Source of the DNA: Blastocatellia bacterium | GTDB taxonomy: Bacteria > Acidobacteriota > Blastocatellia > RBC074 | Direction of reading: 5' to 3' | Assembly: GCA_016789725.1 (NCBI GenBank) | Contig: JAEUQN010000004.1 | Location: 99 to 64,098, forward strand | Length of the DNA: 64,000 nucleotides | Shown here: positions 20,188 through 25,044 of the stretch, piece after piece | Layout of the letters: each line of letters opens with the position of its first letter | Position numbering within the stretch: position 1 is the first letter of the stretch | Position numbers and translations under genes: made by a program | The notes under the pieces: model-generated | The model's input: the letters and a program-made list of their open reading frames with translations, nothing else | Databases searched by the model: none | What the model was told of the DNA's origin: nothing

Positions 20188-21642
20188 TTACGGTGCGGCA
20201 GTGCCTCCGATCATGCAAAAGTACCATTTGCCATCACGACCTTTGGCGGCTCCAAGCCCGACCGTACGAACGTCAGCGCCGATGCTAAACCAGGGGCGAT
20301 AGTGCGTCTCGCTTTTCATCCAATTTTCAGGAAAGTCGAACGCCGCAGCGGGACCGCCAGCGCCTTCGCCAGCCGTTCCTATGTTGGGGGCGAAGTGTTT
20401 CAGGCGGAGGTCAAAGGTGCTTAGGTTTACCCCGTTGTAGTTGCGCGGGCCGTCATGGGTTGATCTGCCGATGGTCGCCTGATATTCGGCCTGAAACTGG
20501 CACGCTTCGTTGAGTTTCGGATCAAGGGTTAGCTCCTTGAAATAGGGCGCTGACGGATTGCTCTTGAAGACCTTTTCGCGCCCTCTATCGGTCACCGCAT
20601 CGCTGCCTCCAAAATTGGAAGCGTACCGATTCCCTTTACGATAGTCGGGATTGTTTCGTCCCAGGTTGCCGAGCTTCAACATACCGTTGCGGAAAGCGGC
20701 AAGATCAACCGGCACTTGCATGTCAGGGAAGTACGAACCCGCGCGCGTCTTTTCGGCAAGCTTGAGCTGGTTGGCCTTCACTTGATCCACCAGCGGCACG
20801 GCCTCGCTGAACTTCAGATTAGGCGGTTGAGATCCCTCAGCGCGCAGCACCAGCAAATCTACTTCACGCCACGGCGTGCTGGGGTTGGGGAGGGCGGCAG
20901 AATCCAGCGCAGCAATGACAGTGCGGTCATCTTTGAGCTTGGAATTATCCTTCCACAGATTGCTGCGCCAACGTTCGCGCTTGTCATCAATTCGTATCTG
21001 GCCGGTACGTGCCGGGGAAGAGCCGTTCGTGTCCCAGGTAAAGCCCTGTTGCACGAAGGTATAAGGCTTCCCGTTAATGGTCTTCGCCACCGTTTGCCCG
21101 CCGCCGCGCTCCGTTTGCTGAAGTACCCAGGACACCATGTAATCAGGCACTCTGACGTTATAAGTGTAGTTTGTGACCGTCGGCGTTCTTTGGACGGTGG
21201 GCAGCCAGTAAGTCGGTCCAGTTGCTGGCTGATTGCCAACAGTATTGGGCTGTGGCTTAGCAGCAGGCCCCTTGGCGGTTGCATTATTTGGCGTAGCAGA
21301 CCCAATAATAATCTGCGCTGGATTAGACGGGTTGGCGACGATTTCCTTGAGAAGATTGTTCGTGCCGACTTCACGAACGCGGAAAACGTGGCCGTTGTAG
21401 CCGAAGATATCAGTGGTACCGCCTGCGGCAATCTGCCGATTTGAACTTCCTTCCTTGCATTTGTGATCAACGAAATTGACGACGAAAGGCTTGCTCGTGT
21501 TATTGACGACCTTAAAATCTACCTTTTTTCCGTCCACTTCTTTTGAGCAGGCATTCTGCGCCGCAATGCTGTTGGCGGCGACCATCAGTAGCCCTAACAG
21601 CGTGATTACTGGTGCCAGTTTTCTCATCGGTTGTTTCCTCAT
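20188..21642 (-). CDS. secreted protein: VHL-beta-like N-terminal module + C-terminal CAP/SCP/PR1-like domain
   Basis: Signal peptide. The N-terminal module VVNNTSKPFVVNFVD...FGYNGHVFRVREVGTNNLL is paralogous to the next gene. The C-terminus (LNEACQFQAEYQA...STHDG...ENWMKSETHYRPWF...VGLGAA...GKWYFCMIGG) fits the CAP domain pattern. Confidence 0.75.
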   Translation of the reverse strand: MRKQPMRKLAPVITLLGLLMVAANSIAAQNACSKEVDGKKVDFKVVNNTSKPFVVNFVDHKCKEGSSNRQIAAGGTTDIFGYNGHVFRVREVGTNNLLKEIVANPSNPAQIIIGSATPNNATAKGPAAKPQPNTVGNQPATGPTYWLPTVQRTPTVTNYTYNVRVPDYMVSWVLQQTERGGGQTVAKTINGKPYTFVQQGFTWDTNGSSPARTGQIRIDDKRERWRSNLWKDNSKLKDDRTVIAALDSAALPNPSTPWREVDLLVLRAEGSQPPNLKFSEAVPLVDQVKANQLKLAEKTRAGSYFPDMQVPVDLAAFRNGMLKLGNLGRNNPDYRKGNRYASNFGGSDAVTDRGREKVFKSNPSAPYFKELTLDPKLNEACQFQAEYQATIGRSTHDGPRNYNGVNLSTFDLRLKHFAPNIGTAGEGAGGPAAAFDFPENWMKSETHYRPWFSIGADVRTVGLGAAKGRDGKWYFCMIGGTAAP

Positions 21643-21823: not shown

Positions 21824-23224
21824 TTACGGCTTGAGGCCTTCGCACGAGAATGTTGCGCGAGACGAAAAAATCTCTTTCATCAAGGCTTCCTGATTCGCGG
21901 GCAAGGCCCCGCCGGGAGAACCAAACCACCGTTGGATCGCCCAAGCGAAATCCTCCCCAGGCGCACCGCCGGGGAAAGTCGTCTGTATCCGCTGACCCAG
22001 TTTGTAGCGTTGGTCAATGGCGTGACCGAATTCATGGATGACCTGATCGTAGGTTCTCAGCGTGTAGTCGGCCTTGTCTGGATAATCTGCGTTGACAGTC
22101 CTGACGCCTGCCTTGCAGATCATCTGTTCTTCGATCCATAGGAGATTGTAATTGGCCCCCCCACGTACGAGGTTTCTACTATTGGAGCCTCTTCCATTCT
22201 CCCCGAACGTTTGCAGTTCCTTCATCTTATCTAGCTGGGTTCCAGGTTCTCCGTTGGTCACATAAACCAGGAAGCCGTTAAATGTGCCTCGCGGGTAGGC
22301 GGGCTTGAATCGCTTGGTGAGTTCAGTATAGACATTGGCTACGGCATTCATTGCCGAGTCACTGACTAATTTCGTTCCTCTGATCGTAATTTTGGGATCC
22401 GGAAGCTCGATGCACTTTGACCACACCGCGTCTGCCTGACACGGGGTTACATTCGCTTTTACAATCACACTAGTGACTGGGCTGATGTTTCCATCACTGG
22501 CCCATAGAATCTCGCCCGTGGCGGAAACCAACTGAAGCGCCCCGCCAAACGTGAGGTTCAGCGTGGCATTGGGTGCAGGCTTGCCCGTAGATGTCCAAAG
22601 CGCTTTTCCTTTAGCGTCATAGACTGCGAGCTTGCCGTCCGGGGTGACTTCGACGCGCGCTGACTGGGAGAAATTGTTTGTGACGGTATTCAGTCCCCAA
22701 ACAAATCCGTCACCTCTAGTAGTGGCGACCACCACATTGCCGTCGTCAGCGAAAACGAGAAAGTGATTGCCCGACGGCGAAGGATATTTCACACCTTTCT
22801 TTAGGGCTGACCCGGCTGCTATTGGAAACTTAGTTGCTACCGTAGGAGAGGATGCGGCACCTATATTGCCAGCCGGTGGTGCAGTGCTGGGAGGTGCATT
22901 GACAATCGTAACTGGTTTGGAAGGATTGGCGACAATTACCTGGAGCAGCTTATTCGTGCCGACTTCACGAACGCGAAAGGCGTGACCGTTGTATGAGATG
23001 CCTTCAAATGTCTCACCGGGGGCAACCTGTTGATCTGACTTTCCTTCTTGACAGTTGGGGTCAACCCAATTGACGGTGAAAGGCTTGTTTGTTTTATTGA
23101 CGATCTTAAGGTTTACTTCTTTGCCATCTATGTCTTTTGAGCAAACATTTTGTTGCGCCGCATTTGGGACACTGATGACAAAGGCAATCGCCACGATGGA
23201 AAGAACGAGAAAAATAGGTTTCAT
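21824..23224 (-). CDS. secreted protein: VHL-beta-like N-terminal module + bulb-type (beta-prism II) lectin-like repeats + HEXXH metalloprotease-like domain
   Basis: Start moved to ATG 23224 (MKPIFLVLSIVAIAFVISVPNAAQ). Module IVNKTNKPFTVNWVD...ISYNGHAFRVREVGTNKLL. Lectin-like units FADDGNVVV, PDGKLAVYDAKGKALWTS, GALQLVSATGEILWAS. Zinc motif HEFGHAI. Confidence 0.75.
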   Translation of the reverse strand: MKPIFLVLSIVAIAFVISVPNAAQQNVCSKDIDGKEVNLKIVNKTNKPFTVNWVDPNCQEGKSDQQVAPGETFEGISYNGHAFRVREVGTNKLLQVIVANPSKPVTIVNAPPSTAPPAGNIGAASSPTVATKFPIAAGSALKKGVKYPSPSGNHFLVFADDGNVVVATTRGDGFVWGLNTVTNNFSQSARVEVTPDGKLAVYDAKGKALWTSTGKPAPNATLNLTFGGALQLVSATGEILWASDGNISPVTSVIVKANVTPCQADAVWSKCIELPDPKITIRGTKLVSDSAMNAVANVYTELTKRFKPAYPRGTFNGFLVYVTNGEPGTQLDKMKELQTFGENGRGSNSRNLVRGGANYNLLWIEEQMICKAGVRTVNADYPDKADYTLRTYDQVIHEFGHAIDQRYKLGQRIQTTFPGGAPGEDFAWAIQRWFGSPGGALPANQEALMKEIFSSRATFSCEGLKP

Positions 23225-23456
23225 ATCTCTTAAGTCTCCTGGGAAATTTTGGTGTGGGGCAATCCCCGGTAATTTCTGACAACAATTCCTCACTAGAAAC
23301 GATGAGATTCGTTGCAATCATTTTGCCGGATTGCACAATGAAACGACTCATCGCCTAATCCAGAATTGATGGCATTTTGAAGGGGTCAAAATGTCTGTTT
23401 GATCTTTAGCAAACCGCCAGCGATGGCAACATTAGTTTTTTTACCCTTTTGAGTCT

Positions 23457-23577
23457 GGATTTTTTTCGGAGTTTTTTTGGATTTTATGTGTACCCGCAAC
23501 ACAACTTGATGACAAACAGATCGTCCGCTATAGTTTGGGCATCCCACGTTTGGATTTTTCGGATTTTTTTGGGAGTG
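23457..23577. promoter_or_regulatory. two clusters of phased GGA(T/G)TTTTT repeats in the divergent promoter region
   Basis: Units start at 23457, 23468 and 23479 (exactly 11 nt apart), and at 23552, 23561 and ~23572 (9-11 nt apart). Confidence 0.45.
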
Positions 23578-23610
23578 TGCCGGCATTTGAACCAATGCGG
23601 AGAATTCATC

Positions 23611-25044
23611 TTGAGTCATCACCTGCAAGAAACAAAAGGGATTTACCGCTTTAGCATATTTCGGCTGGACGTGACGGAGCGTTGTTTGTGGGCCGACAAG
23701 GAGCAGATTTCGCTCACGCCCAAACAATTCGATTTACTTGTTTATTTTGTCGAGAATGCCGGGTACGTGATGAAAAAGAGTCAACTGCTCGACGCGATTT
23801 GGGCAGATGCTTATGTTGAAGAAGCAACGCTGGCGCGCAATATTTCATGGCTTAGAAGCAAACTCGAAGAACACACGAATGGCGAGTCGCTGATTGAGAC
23901 CGTGCCGAAACGGGGCTATCGGTTTACGGCAGAAGTGGCGCGCGTTGCCGATAAGAACAATGACCCCGTCCGCGCTGAACAAACTGCGCAAACCTTTCCC
24001 GATCAGGAAACGATTGAATTGGCTGACAGCACAAGCGAAGAAAACGATGAGCAGGTGAATAGAAATGAAGAACGGGAGCAGCCATCGCGCATAACGCCAA
24101 ATGTTCCCTCGCGTCGTCATCCCTTATCCACTTTTGCAATTCTCTGCCTTATTGTGATCGTTTGCGTCGCGTTCGCAGGAAGCGGTTATATGCTTTCTCA
24201 AGACGCTCCTAAAGCTGACACGCAAACGCCCAAGACTGGCACGCCAACTTCTGCGGTACGGGTTAACGCCACGATTACGATTAAAAACATTGCGGTTGAT
24301 GCAACCCAACAAGCGACAGATGCCGGAATCAAAGTTCTGCCGGGAGACATCGTCATGGTCGGTGCTGAAGGGCTACATCAACCTGACACAGGACAAAACT
24401 GGACGCTTGAGGGTGATAAGGGGGCGAAAGTCTCCGGCAATCAGGCGTTCCAACAAGCCGATCCCTGGTCATTAGTCGGTTGGATTGGCACGACGGAAGC
24501 AGATCGAACAAACTATTTTCAGGTCAGTAAAACCAATCCGATCACGTCAAATAAAAGCGGGGTTCTCTATCTTGCCATCAATGACTGGCAGCAGGAATAT
24601 GCCAATAATCGCGGCGGACTGCTTGTCACGGTTACCTTAACTCGTACTTTTGATATTTCTGCTGAGACTGATGATGCGCAGGGGGCTTGGGGGAATGGAT
24701 TGGTAGAGCTTCACAAAGAAGATACGCTTGCCGTTACTGCCGCTGGAACGGTTTCTTATTGGCTTGGCGGAGAGCTTTATGACCCGAATGGGTCACACCA
24801 CAAACTTGATGGTCTGCTGGCACCAGCGATTAATACGCGTTCTTTGATTGGAAAAATTGGCAGTCGGAATCCGTTCAAACTGGGGATGAACTACCCGCCG
24901 CAAAGGGTAGGTGCGAACGGTTGCTTATTCATCAGTGTCAATGATCAAATCACTAGACGCGGTGCTTTCAAAAATAACAGCGGCAATATTTCCGTTGGTA
25001 TTGAGGTCGTGCGTTCCCCAGAAATATTTACAAATCCTATTTGA
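23611..25044 (+). CDS. ToxR/CadC-like membrane-anchored transcriptional regulator with two extracytoplasmic PA-IL (LecA)-like lectin domains
   Basis: OmpR/PhoB-type winged helix (YRFSIFRLD...LTPKQFDLLVYFVENAGYVMKKSQLLDAIW...ETVPKRGYRF), one TM helix (LSTFAILCLIVIVCVAFAGSGYML), then two LecA-like repeats (PGDIVMVGAEG..., LYLAINDWQQEYANNRGG; LFISVNDQITRRGAFKNNSGN). The start is uncertain: TTG 23611 (GGAG 9 nt upstream) or ATG 23509. Confidence 0.8.
   Translation: MSHHLQETKGIYRFSIFRLDVTERCLWADKEQISLTPKQFDLLVYFVENAGYVMKKSQLLDAIWADAYVEEATLARNISWLRSKLEEHTNGESLIETVPKRGYRFTAEVARVADKNNDPVRAEQTAQTFPDQETIELADSTSEENDEQVNRNEEREQPSRITPNVPSRRHPLSTFAILCLIVIVCVAFAGSGYMLSQDAPKADTQTPKTGTPTSAVRVNATITIKNIAVDATQQATDAGIKVLPGDIVMVGAEGLHQPDTGQNWTLEGDKGAKVSGNQAFQQADPWSLVGWIGTTEADRTNYFQVSKTNPITSNKSGVLYLAINDWQQEYANNRGGLLVTVTLTRTFDISAETDDAQGAWGNGLVELHKEDTLAVTAAGTVSYWLGGELYDPNGSHHKLDGLLAPAINTRSLIGKIGSRNPFKLGMNYPPQRVGANGCLFISVNDQITRRGAFKNNSGNISVGIEVVRSPEIFTNPI

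What the first reader, a model, noticed from the sequence alone, without database searches (positions are those of the whole stretch)
23611..25044. One-component ToxR/CadC-like regulator whose sensor is a pair of PA-IL (LecA)-type lectin domains
Architecture read from the translation: cytoplasmic OmpR/PhoB winged helix, an acidic linker, one TM helix, then two ~125-aa repeats. Each repeat resembles Pseudomonas LecA/PA-IL (PGD-hydrophobic-x-hydrophobic-x-A-x-G ... W ... GD; hLhG.IG; hyLaiND....Y.NN.G). This would be a membrane regulator that senses an extracellular glycan directly. It is divergently transcribed from the lectin/protease effector gene, which suggests a dedicated sugar-sensing regulatory module for the two secreted VHL-like proteins.
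Basis: partly seen in the sequence, partly recalled or inferred. Interest (0 to 1): 0.6.

Follow-up and report, generated by a model that had tools for sequence, protein, structure and literature searches.

The report
Membrane gene regulator with lectin sensor
A soil-type acidobacterium encodes a membrane-anchored gene switch whose outward-facing part is two copies of a sugar-binding (LecA-type) lectin domain. It sits next to genes for secreted lectin-like proteins, so it is a plausible but untested direct sugar-to-gene sensor of a kind not yet described.

Summary
The gene at 23611-25044 (+, TTG start, 477 aa) encodes four parts in order:
- an OmpR/PhoB winged helix (Pfam Trans_reg_C, E 4e-21; best solved match is the CadC DNA-binding domain);
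- an acidic, poorly conserved linker;
- one transmembrane helix;
- two PA-IL domains in tandem.

The Pfam PA-IL score is marginal (24.1 bits against a cut-off of 22.5). Independent evidence backs it. An ectodomain profile finds only LecA, PllA and one other PA-IL lectin in the PDB. An AlphaFold model (pLDDT 92.5) matches only LecA, PllA and EclA-N (TM 0.7-0.8). The LecA calcium ligands (D100/N107/N108) align to near-invariant ND...(N/D)N.G motifs in both repeats. The galactose-contact residues (H50, Q53) are not conserved.

About 50 homologues exist, nearly all in Acidobacteriota metagenome genomes (Pyrinomonadaceae/Blastocatellia), with generic names only.

In 9 of 10 informative loci the regulator lies beside genes for secreted modular lectin-like proteins. 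Some of these are 42-52% identical to the regulator's own ectodomain.

Sister regulators replace one or both PA-IL domains with a MIR-like beta-trefoil. The same tandem PA-IL module also follows a transmembrane helix in Ser/Thr kinases and in a TIR protein.

Conserved, helically phased GGA+T-run repeats lie upstream.

Verdict: a new variant of the ToxR-like regulators. Glycan sensing and the regulatory targets are inferred, not shown.

The parts
23611..25044 (+). Regulator gene, 477 aa (TTG start): winged helix, acidic linker, transmembrane helix, two PA-IL domains
23701..23925 (+). OmpR/PhoB-type winged-helix DNA-binding domain (residues 31-105); no receiver domain precedes it
   Evidence: Pfam Trans_reg_C E 4.4e-21. 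Best PDB match is the CadC DNA-binding domain 5ju7, E 2.8e-11. Recognition-helix region TLARN.SWLR is invariant in 30 homologues.
23932..24120 (+). Acidic, poorly conserved cytoplasmic linker (about residues 108-170)
24124..24189 (+). Single transmembrane helix (about residues 172-193), with SRRH on the cytoplasmic side
   Evidence: Hydropathy scan
24190..24255 (+). Thr/Pro/Lys-rich periplasmic tether
   Evidence: the first six residues of the model (protein residues 206-211) have pLDDT below 50
24256..24657 (+). PA-IL (LecA-fold) domain 1, residues about 216-349
   Evidence: Profile hit to LecA 1l7l, E 1.7e-4. Foldseek LecA 2vxj/1l7l, TM 0.71-0.81.
24580..24618 (+). Calcium-ligand motif of domain 1: N324 D325 ... 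Y330 . N332 N333 . G335 G336. D325, N332 and N333 align to LecA D100, N107 and N108.
   Evidence: The same ligand pattern is described for EclA-N in PMC11875179.
24658..25020 (+). PA-IL (LecA-fold) domain 2, residues about 350-470
   Evidence: Profile hits to PA-IL 30ew (E 8.7e-4) and PllA 5odu (E 4.4e-3)
24940..24984 (+). Calcium-ligand motif of domain 2: N444 D445 ... N455 N456 S G458 (invariant in 30 homologues)
23456..23489 (+). Upstream repeat cluster 1: GGA followed by a T-run, starting at 23457, 23468 and 23479 (11-nt period). Candidate operator for the winged helix.
   Evidence: Conserved block in a four-locus footprint.
23506..23534 (+). Sigma-70-like promoter TTGATG-17-TATAGT between the two repeat clusters
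   Evidence: a consensus match only. The TTGA is invariant in the footprint; the -10 hexamer is not conserved in L003 and L010.
23551..23577 (+). Upstream repeat cluster 2: GGA followed by a T-run at 23552, 23561 and 23572
21824..23224 (-). Divergent neighbour and likely target: secreted protein with a VHL-like N-domain, a B-lectin (putidacin-like) domain and an HExxH domain
   Evidence: Orthologue next to the regulator in L001 and L010.
20188..21642 (-). Second secreted protein: VHL-like N-domain plus a CAP domain
   Evidence: orthologue in L001

Best explanation
This is a ToxR-like transmembrane one-component transcription regulator of an acidobacterium (family Pyrinomonadaceae or close to it).

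Shown by sequence and structure:
- The cytoplasmic OmpR/PhoB winged helix is tethered by an acidic linker and one transmembrane helix to a periplasmic sensor.
- The sensor is two LecA-fold (PA-IL) beta-sandwich domains.
- Both domains keep the calcium-ligand triad that, in LecA, PllA and EclA-N, holds the ion bridging the sugar hydroxyls.

Inferred mechanism:
- A calcium-dependent carbohydrate ligand reaches the periplasm. It could be an oligosaccharide or an envelope-derived glycan. Its specificity is unknown and probably not LecA-like galactose.
- The ligand binds one or both PA-IL domains and changes the oligomeric state or stability of the regulator.
- The winged helices then occupy the helically phased GGA+T-run direct repeats in the 386-bp divergent spacer.
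- This controls the regulator's own promoter and the adjacent genes for secreted lectin-like effector proteins (21824-23224 and probably 20188-21642).

The sensor is a paralogue of lectins that such cassettes secrete. Sensor and cargo therefore probably recognise related glycans.
For: Architecture.
- Trans_reg_C E 4e-21 and PA-IL above its cut-off.
- The closest NCBIfam models are CadC and HilA N-termini, far below their full-length cut-offs.
- Best PDB match is the CadC DNA-binding domain.
- One transmembrane helix with positive charges on the inside.

PA-IL identity.
- An ectodomain-only profile finds only LecA, another PA-IL lectin and PllA below E 0.01 among 177,635 PDB sequences.
- The AF2 model has pLDDT 92.5 and pTM 0.88.
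- Its ten best Foldseek hits are all LecA, PllA or EclA-N.
- D325/N332/N333 and D445/N455/N456 align to LecA D100/N107/N108. All are invariant or N/D in 30 homologues, apart from H or K at position 332 in two sequences.
- The same ligand set is documented for EclA-N.

Sensor role.
- The tandem module also follows a transmembrane helix in three Ser/Thr kinases and one TIR protein.
- Sister winged-helix regulators carry PA-IL plus a MIR-like trefoil, or the trefoil alone.

Regulatory link. Secreted lectin-like genes lie next to the regulator in the window and in L001, L003, L005, L007, L010, L011, L090 and L093. These include:
- secreted tandem PA-IL proteins 42-52% identical to the ectodomain;
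- a secreted PA-IL + VHL-like fusion whose VHL-like part is 44% identical to the window's neighbour.

Operator candidate.
- The two GGA+T-run clusters are the best-conserved blocks of the spacer across four loci.
- The phased pattern is rare by chance: 2 matches against 0.09 expected.
- A related motif lies just upstream of winged-helix paralogue genes in 7 of 8 loci that have it.
Against: - No experiment or expression data exist.
- The Pfam PA-IL score is marginal.
- The LecA sugar-contact residues H50 and Q53 are not conserved. EclA-N, which likewise keeps only the calcium site, has no identified ligand. Carbohydrate binding is therefore not guaranteed.
- The sensor is periplasmic, so large external glycans cannot reach it directly.
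- The repeat clusters keep their position relative to the regulator gene, not relative to the neighbour. In L010 another gene lies between them. They may serve only autoregulation.
- Similar motifs lie upstream of many paralogues. This argues against a regulator-specific operator.
- The neighbour gene families vary between loci, so the targets are not a fixed orthologous set.
Confidence: 0.55

Rival explanations
1. The PA-IL ectodomain is a protein-interaction or oligomerisation module, not a glycan sensor. It would pair with the secreted PA-IL or VHL-like proteins as they cross the periplasm (cargo or feedback sensing). LecA-type domains self-associate, so this is plausible. Alternatively it would simply dimerise the regulator.
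For: - Secreted tandem PA-IL proteins encoded next to regulators are 42-52% identical to the ectodomain over their full length.
- The sensor modules (PA-IL, MIR-like trefoil) mirror the modules of the adjacent secreted proteins.
- LecA, PllA and EclA-N are oligomers (general knowledge; EclA-N dimer in PMC11875179).
- The Gal-contact residues are not conserved.
Against: - The window's own genome has no secreted tandem PA-IL paralogue. Its only other hit is a distant single-domain protein on another contig, so there is no partner here.
- The calcium-ligand residues are kept under strong constraint in both repeats, which points to a ligand site.
- The same module is used by kinases and a TIR protein in other contexts.
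Confidence: 0.2
2. The ectodomain senses something other than a carbohydrate. Candidates are calcium or another divalent cation itself, pH, or a non-sugar diol-bearing small molecule. The PA-IL fold would serve only as a scaffold.
For: - Only the metal ligands are conserved with LecA, not the sugar-specificity residues.
- EclA-N binds calcium but has no known sugar ligand.
- ToxR-like regulators such as CadC sense pH or small molecules (general knowledge).
Against: - All characterised members of the fold with a known ligand are calcium-dependent lectins.
- The regulator consistently co-occurs with lectin-module proteins: B-lectin, PA-IL and MIR-like trefoil.
Confidence: 0.12
3. The regulator controls distant or unrelated genes. 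Its position next to secreted lectin-like genes would only reflect shared residence in a variable, horizontally moving islet.
For: - Patchy distribution: 3 of 14 genomes of the genus and 0 of 47 other relatives.
- Locally lower G+C: 48.9% at 22-24 kb against about 54%.
- Neighbour families differ between loci, and one locus has a transposase next door.
- The repeat clusters track the regulator gene, not the neighbour.
Against: - The association with secreted lectin-type proteins persists across regulators only 47-55% identical and across different neighbour families.
- In most of those loci the secreted genes are transcribed divergently from the regulator. This orientation is typical of a local regulator.
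Confidence: 0.1

Closest known systems
ToxR-like transmembrane transcription regulators (E. coli CadC, Vibrio ToxR/TcpP, VtrA, Salmonella HilA N-terminus)
   Same: An N-terminal cytoplasmic OmpR/PhoB winged helix without a receiver domain, a flexible linker, one transmembrane helix and a C-terminal periplasmic sensor. The CadC DNA-binding domain is the best solved match.
   Different: - The periplasmic domain is unrelated to the CadC, ToxR or VtrA sensors. It is a tandem PA-IL lectin fold.
- No ToxS/VtrC-type partner gene follows.
- The host is an acidobacterium.
- A survey of such regulators (PMC10269533) mentions no lectin sensor.
PA-IL / LecA family lectins (P. aeruginosa LecA, Photorhabdus PllA, Enterobacter EclA N-domain; Pfam PF07828)
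   Same: Beta-sandwich fold (TM 0.6-0.8), 18-26% identity, PGD and GxIG motifs, and the Asp/Asn/Asn calcium ligands in both repeats.
   Different: - Here there are two domains in tandem on one chain, anchored to the inner membrane and fused to a transcription factor.
- The galactose-contact residues H50 and Q53 are replaced.
- LecA and PllA are single-domain soluble tetramers.
- EclA was reported in 2024 as the first LecA domain fused to another domain.
Extracytoplasmic glycan-sensing signalling proteins (PASTA-domain Ser/Thr kinases; Bacteroides hybrid two-component SusR-like sensors)
   Same: The logic is the same: a carbohydrate-binding module outside the cytoplasmic membrane is coupled through one polypeptide to a cytoplasmic output. 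The tandem PA-IL module is also found on Ser/Thr kinases.
   Different: The sensor fold is different and the output is direct DNA binding. This comparison rests on general knowledge and was not tested here.

Membership tests
ToxR-like transmembrane transcription regulators (architectural class) | N-terminal OmpR/PhoB winged-helix DNA-binding domain with no receiver domain | tested here: met
   Trans_reg_C at residues 31-105, E 4.4e-21, starting about 30 residues from the N-terminus; CadC DNA-binding domain is the best PDB hit
ToxR-like transmembrane transcription regulators (architectural class) | Single transmembrane helix, N-terminus in the cytoplasm, C-terminal domain outside | tested here: met
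   One hydrophobic segment at 172-193 (mean hydropathy 2.7), with SRRH before it. This was a hydropathy scan only; no dedicated topology predictor was available.
ToxR-like transmembrane transcription regulators (architectural class) | Binds DNA and regulates transcription while membrane-bound, in response to a periplasmic signal | not testable with these tools
   Indirect support only: conserved phased direct repeats upstream and conserved synteny
CadC / ToxR orthologues | CadC-type or ToxR-type periplasmic sensor domain | tested here: not met
   The NCBIfam CadC model matches only model positions 23-191, at 64 bits against a cut-off of 400. The ectodomain is PA-IL.
PA-IL / LecA lectin family (PF07828) | Match to the family profile above the curated threshold | tested here: met
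   24.1 bits against 22.5, two stretches; marginal. Many homologues carry the precomputed PF07828 hit.
PA-IL / LecA lectin family (PF07828) | LecA-type beta-sandwich fold | tested here: met
   AF2 pLDDT 92.5. The ten best Foldseek PDB hits are all LecA, PllA or EclA-N, with TM (target) 0.61-0.81.
PA-IL / LecA lectin family (PF07828) | Calcium-ligand side chains (LecA D100, N107, N108) | tested here: met
   By alignment: D325/N332/N333 and D445/N455/N456. All are invariant or N/D across 30 homologues, except position 332, which is H or K in two sequences. The geometry in the model was not measured because the script machine was lost.
PA-IL / LecA lectin family (PF07828) | Galactose-contact residues (LecA H50, Q53) | tested here: not met
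   They align to K and G in a variable loop. The same is true of EclA-N.
PA-IL / LecA lectin family (PF07828) | Calcium-dependent carbohydrate binding | not testable with these tools
   Needs glycan array or ITC on the purified ectodomain

The most novel reading that the evidence does not exclude
The tandem PA-IL module is a previously unrecognised, general extracytoplasmic sensor domain. It is reused with at least three outputs: a winged-helix transcription factor, a Ser/Thr kinase and a TIR domain.

In Acidobacteriota it forms sensor-cargo pairs. The regulator's sensor is a paralogue of the lectins it switches on. The cell would then detect a target glycan (for example from prey, competitors or plant or fungal polymers) with the same recognition module that it deploys in its secreted lectin-effector proteins. 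The PA-IL and MIR-trefoil sensors appear to be swapped in step with the cargo.
Probability: 0.35. Interest if true: 0.75.

Novelty: new variant of a known kind. Interest (0 to 1): 0.6.

Why it matters
Direct one-protein coupling of a lectin to a DNA-binding domain would be the simplest known route from a glycan to gene expression. Known ToxR-like regulators sense pH, bile salts or small molecules through unrelated domains. LecA-family domains are known almost only as free-standing virulence lectins.

The finding has four consequences:
- It gives a testable function to a family annotated only as a "winged helix-turn-helix protein" in Acidobacteriota, a major and poorly studied soil phylum.
- It offers a compact chassis for glycan biosensors.
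- It links the enigmatic secreted VHL-like and lectin-like proteins next door to a dedicated control circuit.
- It suggests that PA-IL tandems are a reusable sensor module, also found on kinases and TIR proteins.

Tried and rejected
- A PDB profile search with full-length rows was swamped by winged-helix hits. I repeated it with an ectodomain-only alignment.
- My first motif pattern had the wrong period (12 nt) and found nothing. I corrected it to 11 nt.
- The genome-contig scan seeded on winged-helix peptides, so it returned mostly paralogues. Only L010 and L011 are full-length members, and L012 is partial.
- YGGATTTTT elsewhere in the window (57761, 62857) lies inside unrelated coding regions and is not significant overall.
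- I considered the downstream molybdo-oxidoreductase genes as targets and rejected them. They are convergent, and syntenic only in the closest relative L001.
- I considered a longer protein starting at TTG 23449 (531 aa) and rejected it. The extension is the translated T-rich repeat DNA (LDFFRSFFGF). Homologues start at the 23611-equivalent position.
- The Pfam VHL model gave no hit at E <= 1 on the neighbours. I therefore did not confirm their VHL-like nature myself.
- Five literature searches found no description of a PA-IL-fused regulator.
- Earlier scan notes hold no look-alike.
- The Python machine was lost. I could not measure calcium-site geometry or compare the two-domain packing with the LecA dimer.
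Full report
**1. What is there**

The open frame runs from 23449 to 25044 on the + strand. I accept this start for three reasons:
- The database copy is 100% identical and 477 aa long, and 87-91% identical homologues begin with M at the same position.
- A GGAG lies 10 nt upstream.
- The 54 extra codons of the longer frame are a translation of T-rich repeat DNA ("LDFFRSFFGF"). Gene callers have also translated this repeat in a few distant homologues.

**2. Domain anatomy**

- Pfam finds Trans_reg_C at residues 31-105 (E 4.4e-21). It finds PA-IL at 24.1 bits against a gathering score of 22.5, in two stretches.
- The best NCBIfam models are the N-terminal parts of CadC and HilA, far below their full-length cut-offs.
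- The best solved relative of the N-terminus is the CadC DNA-binding domain, 5ju7.
- A hydropathy scan shows one strongly hydrophobic segment at about 172-193. SRRH lies on its N-terminal side, so the N-terminus is cytoplasmic.
- Residues 108-170 are D/E-rich and poorly conserved. A Thr/Pro/Lys-rich tether follows the membrane helix.
- The two ectodomain halves match each other (BLASTP E 8e-5).

**3. Is the ectodomain really PA-IL?**

The Pfam score is marginal, so I tested it independently.
- A profile of the ectodomain plus six ectodomain-only relatives was searched against all PDB sequences. Below E 0.01 it hit only PA-IL lectins. Repeat 1 matched LecA (1l7l, E 1.7e-4). Repeat 2 matched another PA-IL lectin (30ew, E 8.7e-4) and PllA (5odu, E 4.4e-3).
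- An AlphaFold2 model of the ectodomain, built with 38 aligned sequences, has mean pLDDT 92.5 and pTM 0.88.
- Its ten best Foldseek matches in the PDB are all LecA, PllA or the EclA N-domain. Target-normalised TM-scores are 0.61-0.81 and identity is 18-26%. The next match has a probability of 0.06.

**4. Binding-site residues**

The HMMER alignment numbers LecA so that Y36, H50, Q53, D100, T104, N107 and N108 fall at the literature positions. That these residues form the calcium/galactose site is my own knowledge. The equivalent ligand set (Asp114, Asp121, Asn122 plus two backbone oxygens) is described for EclA-N in PMC11875179.
- In repeat 1, D325, N332 and N333 align to D100, N107 and N108.
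- In repeat 2, D445, N455 and N456 do the same.
- Across 30 homologues D325, N333, D445, N455 and N456 are invariant. Position 332 is N or D in all but two, which have H or K.
- The galactose-specific H50 and Q53 align to K and G in a variable loop.

So the metal site is conserved in both repeats but LecA-like galactose specificity is not. EclA-N shows the same pattern and has no known ligand. This is a real caveat for the sugar-sensor reading.

**5. Relatives and distribution**

- A word-seeded search of 5.8 billion proteins found about 50 full-length homologues (44-91% identity). Where named, they come from Acidobacteriota metagenome genomes (Pyrinomonadaceae, Blastocatellales) and are annotated only as winged helix-turn-helix or transcriptional regulator proteins.
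- An exhaustive HMMER search of 1.84 billion cluster representatives with the ectodomain found only 102 proteins at E <= 1e-3 and 18 at E <= 1e-10. The module is rare.
- Within the genus, 3 of 14 genomes carry the gene. None of 47 other genomes of the family and class do.
- Local G+C is lower, 48.9% against about 54%. The gene looks like an accessory gene.

**6. Variants that speak to function**

(a) Secreted proteins exist with a signal peptide followed by the same tandem PA-IL. They are 46-52% identical to the window's ectodomain.

(b) Sister regulators have other sensors: winged helix-TM-one PA-IL plus a domain of about 250 aa, or that domain alone. The domain has three internal repeats. 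A moderate-quality model (pLDDT 70.6) matches MIR-type beta-trefoils, namely the Pmt2/3/4 MIR domains and the RyR and IP3R N-terminal domains. This is another ligand-binding fold.

(c) The tandem PA-IL also follows a transmembrane helix in three Ser/Thr protein kinases and in a TIR-domain protein.

Reuse of one extracytoplasmic module with several cytoplasmic outputs is the signature of a sensor domain.

**7. Genomic context**

I examined ten loci in which the flanking DNA next to the regulator (upstream in nine, downstream in L007) is present.

| Locus | Regulator identity to window | Neighbouring secreted genes |
|---|---|---|
| Window | - | Divergent: VHL-like + B-lectin (putidacin-like, NCBIfam E 1e-14) + HExxH protein, then VHL-like + CAP protein |
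| L001 | 76% | Both orthologues |
| L010 | 68% | A small secreted protein, then the orthologue of the first |
| L003 | 67% | A secreted MIR-like protein, 37% identical (E 9e-29) to the ectodomain of regulator P0072 |
| L011 | 54% | A secreted PA-IL + VHL-like fusion (VHL-like part 44% identical to the window's neighbour, E 2e-20); a secreted tandem PA-IL 42% identical to its own regulator's ectodomain (E 7e-68) |
| L090 | 55% | A B-lectin protein and a secreted tandem PA-IL |
| L005 | 47% | A beta/gamma-crystallin + HExxH protein (34% identical to the window's neighbour); a 738-aa repeat protein |
| L093 | 45% | The homologue of that large repeat protein |
| L007 (PA-IL + trefoil regulator) | - | Beside (convergent): a secreted tandem PA-IL and a Vps62-like protein |
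| L092 | 48% | Only a transposase next door |

Nine of ten loci thus pair the regulator with secreted proteins. In seven these carry recognised lectin-type modules. L005 and L093 have other secreted proteins (a crystallin + HExxH protein and a large repeat protein). The gene families differ but the theme persists. This supports a local regulatory relationship but does not prove one.

The downstream molybdo-oxidoreductase genes are convergent and are syntenic only in L001, so they are unlikely targets.

**8. Upstream DNA**

- The 386-bp spacer contains GGA+T-run units at 23457, 23468 and 23479 (11-nt period) and at 23552, 23561 and 23572.
- The phased pattern occurs twice in the window against 0.09 expected.
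- In an alignment of the spacers of the window, L001, L010 and L003, these two clusters are the best-conserved blocks, with invariant GGA triplets.
- A sigma-70-like TTGATG-17-TATAGT lies between them. It is a consensus match only, and the -10 hexamer is not conserved in L003 and L010.
- A related motif lies just upstream of winged-helix paralogue genes in 7 of the 8 loci that contain it.

Direct repeats at one helical turn are the usual site type for OmpR/PhoB-family proteins (general knowledge), so they are a reasonable operator candidate. However, they track the regulator gene rather than the neighbour, and paralogues share them. Autoregulation or a common promoter element are therefore equally possible.

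**9. Interpretation**

Shown:
- The architecture.
- The PA-IL fold and conserved metal ligands.
- The rarity and patchiness of the gene.
- Reuse of the module as an extracytoplasmic domain.
- The conserved association with secreted lectin-like genes.
- The conserved phased repeats.

Inferred:
- A calcium-dependent carbohydrate ligand binds in the periplasm. Acidobacteriota have two membranes (general knowledge), so the ligand must be small enough to enter or be envelope-derived.
- Binding alters oligomerisation or stability.
- The winged helices then act on the divergent promoter region.

Main rival: the ectodomain pairs with paralogous secreted lectins (cargo sensing). The 42-52% identity between sensor and cargo favours this. 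The absence of a secreted tandem PA-IL in this genome weakens it.

**10. Comparison and novelty**

The protein belongs to the architectural class of ToxR-like transmembrane regulators, but it is not a CadC or ToxR orthologue because its sensor domain is different. It is a member of the PA-IL family by profile, fold and metal ligands, but it lacks the galactose residues.
- I found no paper describing a PA-IL domain fused to a transcription factor.
- A 2024 paper calls EclA the first LecA domain fused to any other domain.
- A survey of transmembrane regulators mentions no lectin sensors.

I rate it a new variant of a known kind, with interest 0.6.

**11. Limits**

- The script machine was lost, so there was no geometric analysis of the model.
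- I did not test the VHL-like nature of the neighbours. Pfam gave no VHL hit at E <= 1. An earlier follow-up (e1-2887057) reports that it is confirmed.

Noticed in passing
L003:4951-5655 (-); proteins P0051, P0054, P0060, P0062, P0064, P0072: A roughly 210-250 aa three-repeat domain occurs in two forms. It is a secreted protein next to a PA-IL regulator, and it is the periplasmic sensor of sister winged-helix regulators. It has no Pfam hit. The AF2 model (pLDDT 70.6) matches MIR-type beta-trefoils (Pmt MIR domains, RyR and IP3R N-terminal domains).
   Followed up: partly
proteins P0129, P0132, P0133 (Ser/Thr kinases) and P0207 (TIR): Metagenomic proteins in which a cytoplasmic Ser/Thr kinase or TIR domain is joined through one transmembrane helix to the same tandem PA-IL module. 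In the kinases, repeat 1 has lost the ND/NN calcium motif while repeat 2 keeps it. Their taxonomy is unknown.
   Followed up: partly
L005:5633-5908 (-) and L090:4580-4879 (-): A conserved 91-99 aa protein (ATNRRY..C..CGE.MLTTEQAA..F.I.QRRIF) lies immediately divergent from the regulator in two distant loci. It looks like a small Cys-containing helix-turn-helix protein and could be a co-regulator. It is absent from the window.
   Followed up: no
own genome contig C221, L009:1051-1902 (+): The only other PA-IL-like sequence in this genome is a 283-aa secreted protein with a single, distant C-terminal PA-IL-like domain (Pfam 19.9 bits, below the cut-off). It lies next to a lytic transglycosylase-like gene and an ABC permease gene.
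   Followed up: no
window 23449-23610: The T-rich repeat DNA upstream of the regulator is open in frame and translates to LDFFRSFFGF / VWIFRIFLG. The same peptide appears as an N-terminal extension in some database homologues (P0060, P0072, P0027). This is probably a start-codon miscall caused by a conserved DNA motif.
   Followed up: partly
window 21824-23224 (-): The middle domain of the divergent secreted protein matches the putidacin L1 lectin-like bacteriocin model (NCBIfam E 9.8e-15). The C-terminus carries HEFGH. The cassette may therefore encode antibacterial or other glycan-targeted effectors. Homologues swap the N-terminal modules for beta/gamma-crystallin domains (L005:1099-2547).
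   Followed up: partly
L010, L040, L044, L067, L077 record titles: Several metagenome genomes carrying typical acidobacterial winged-helix regulators are titled Heliomicrobium or Heliobacteriaceae (Firmicutes names) in the public records. This is probably a taxonomy-label problem rather than real distribution outside Acidobacteriota.
   Followed up: no
window 22001-24000: G+C is 48.9% here against about 52-56% in most of the window. The regulator is present in only 3 of 14 genomes of the genus. This fits a variable accessory islet.
   Followed up: partly
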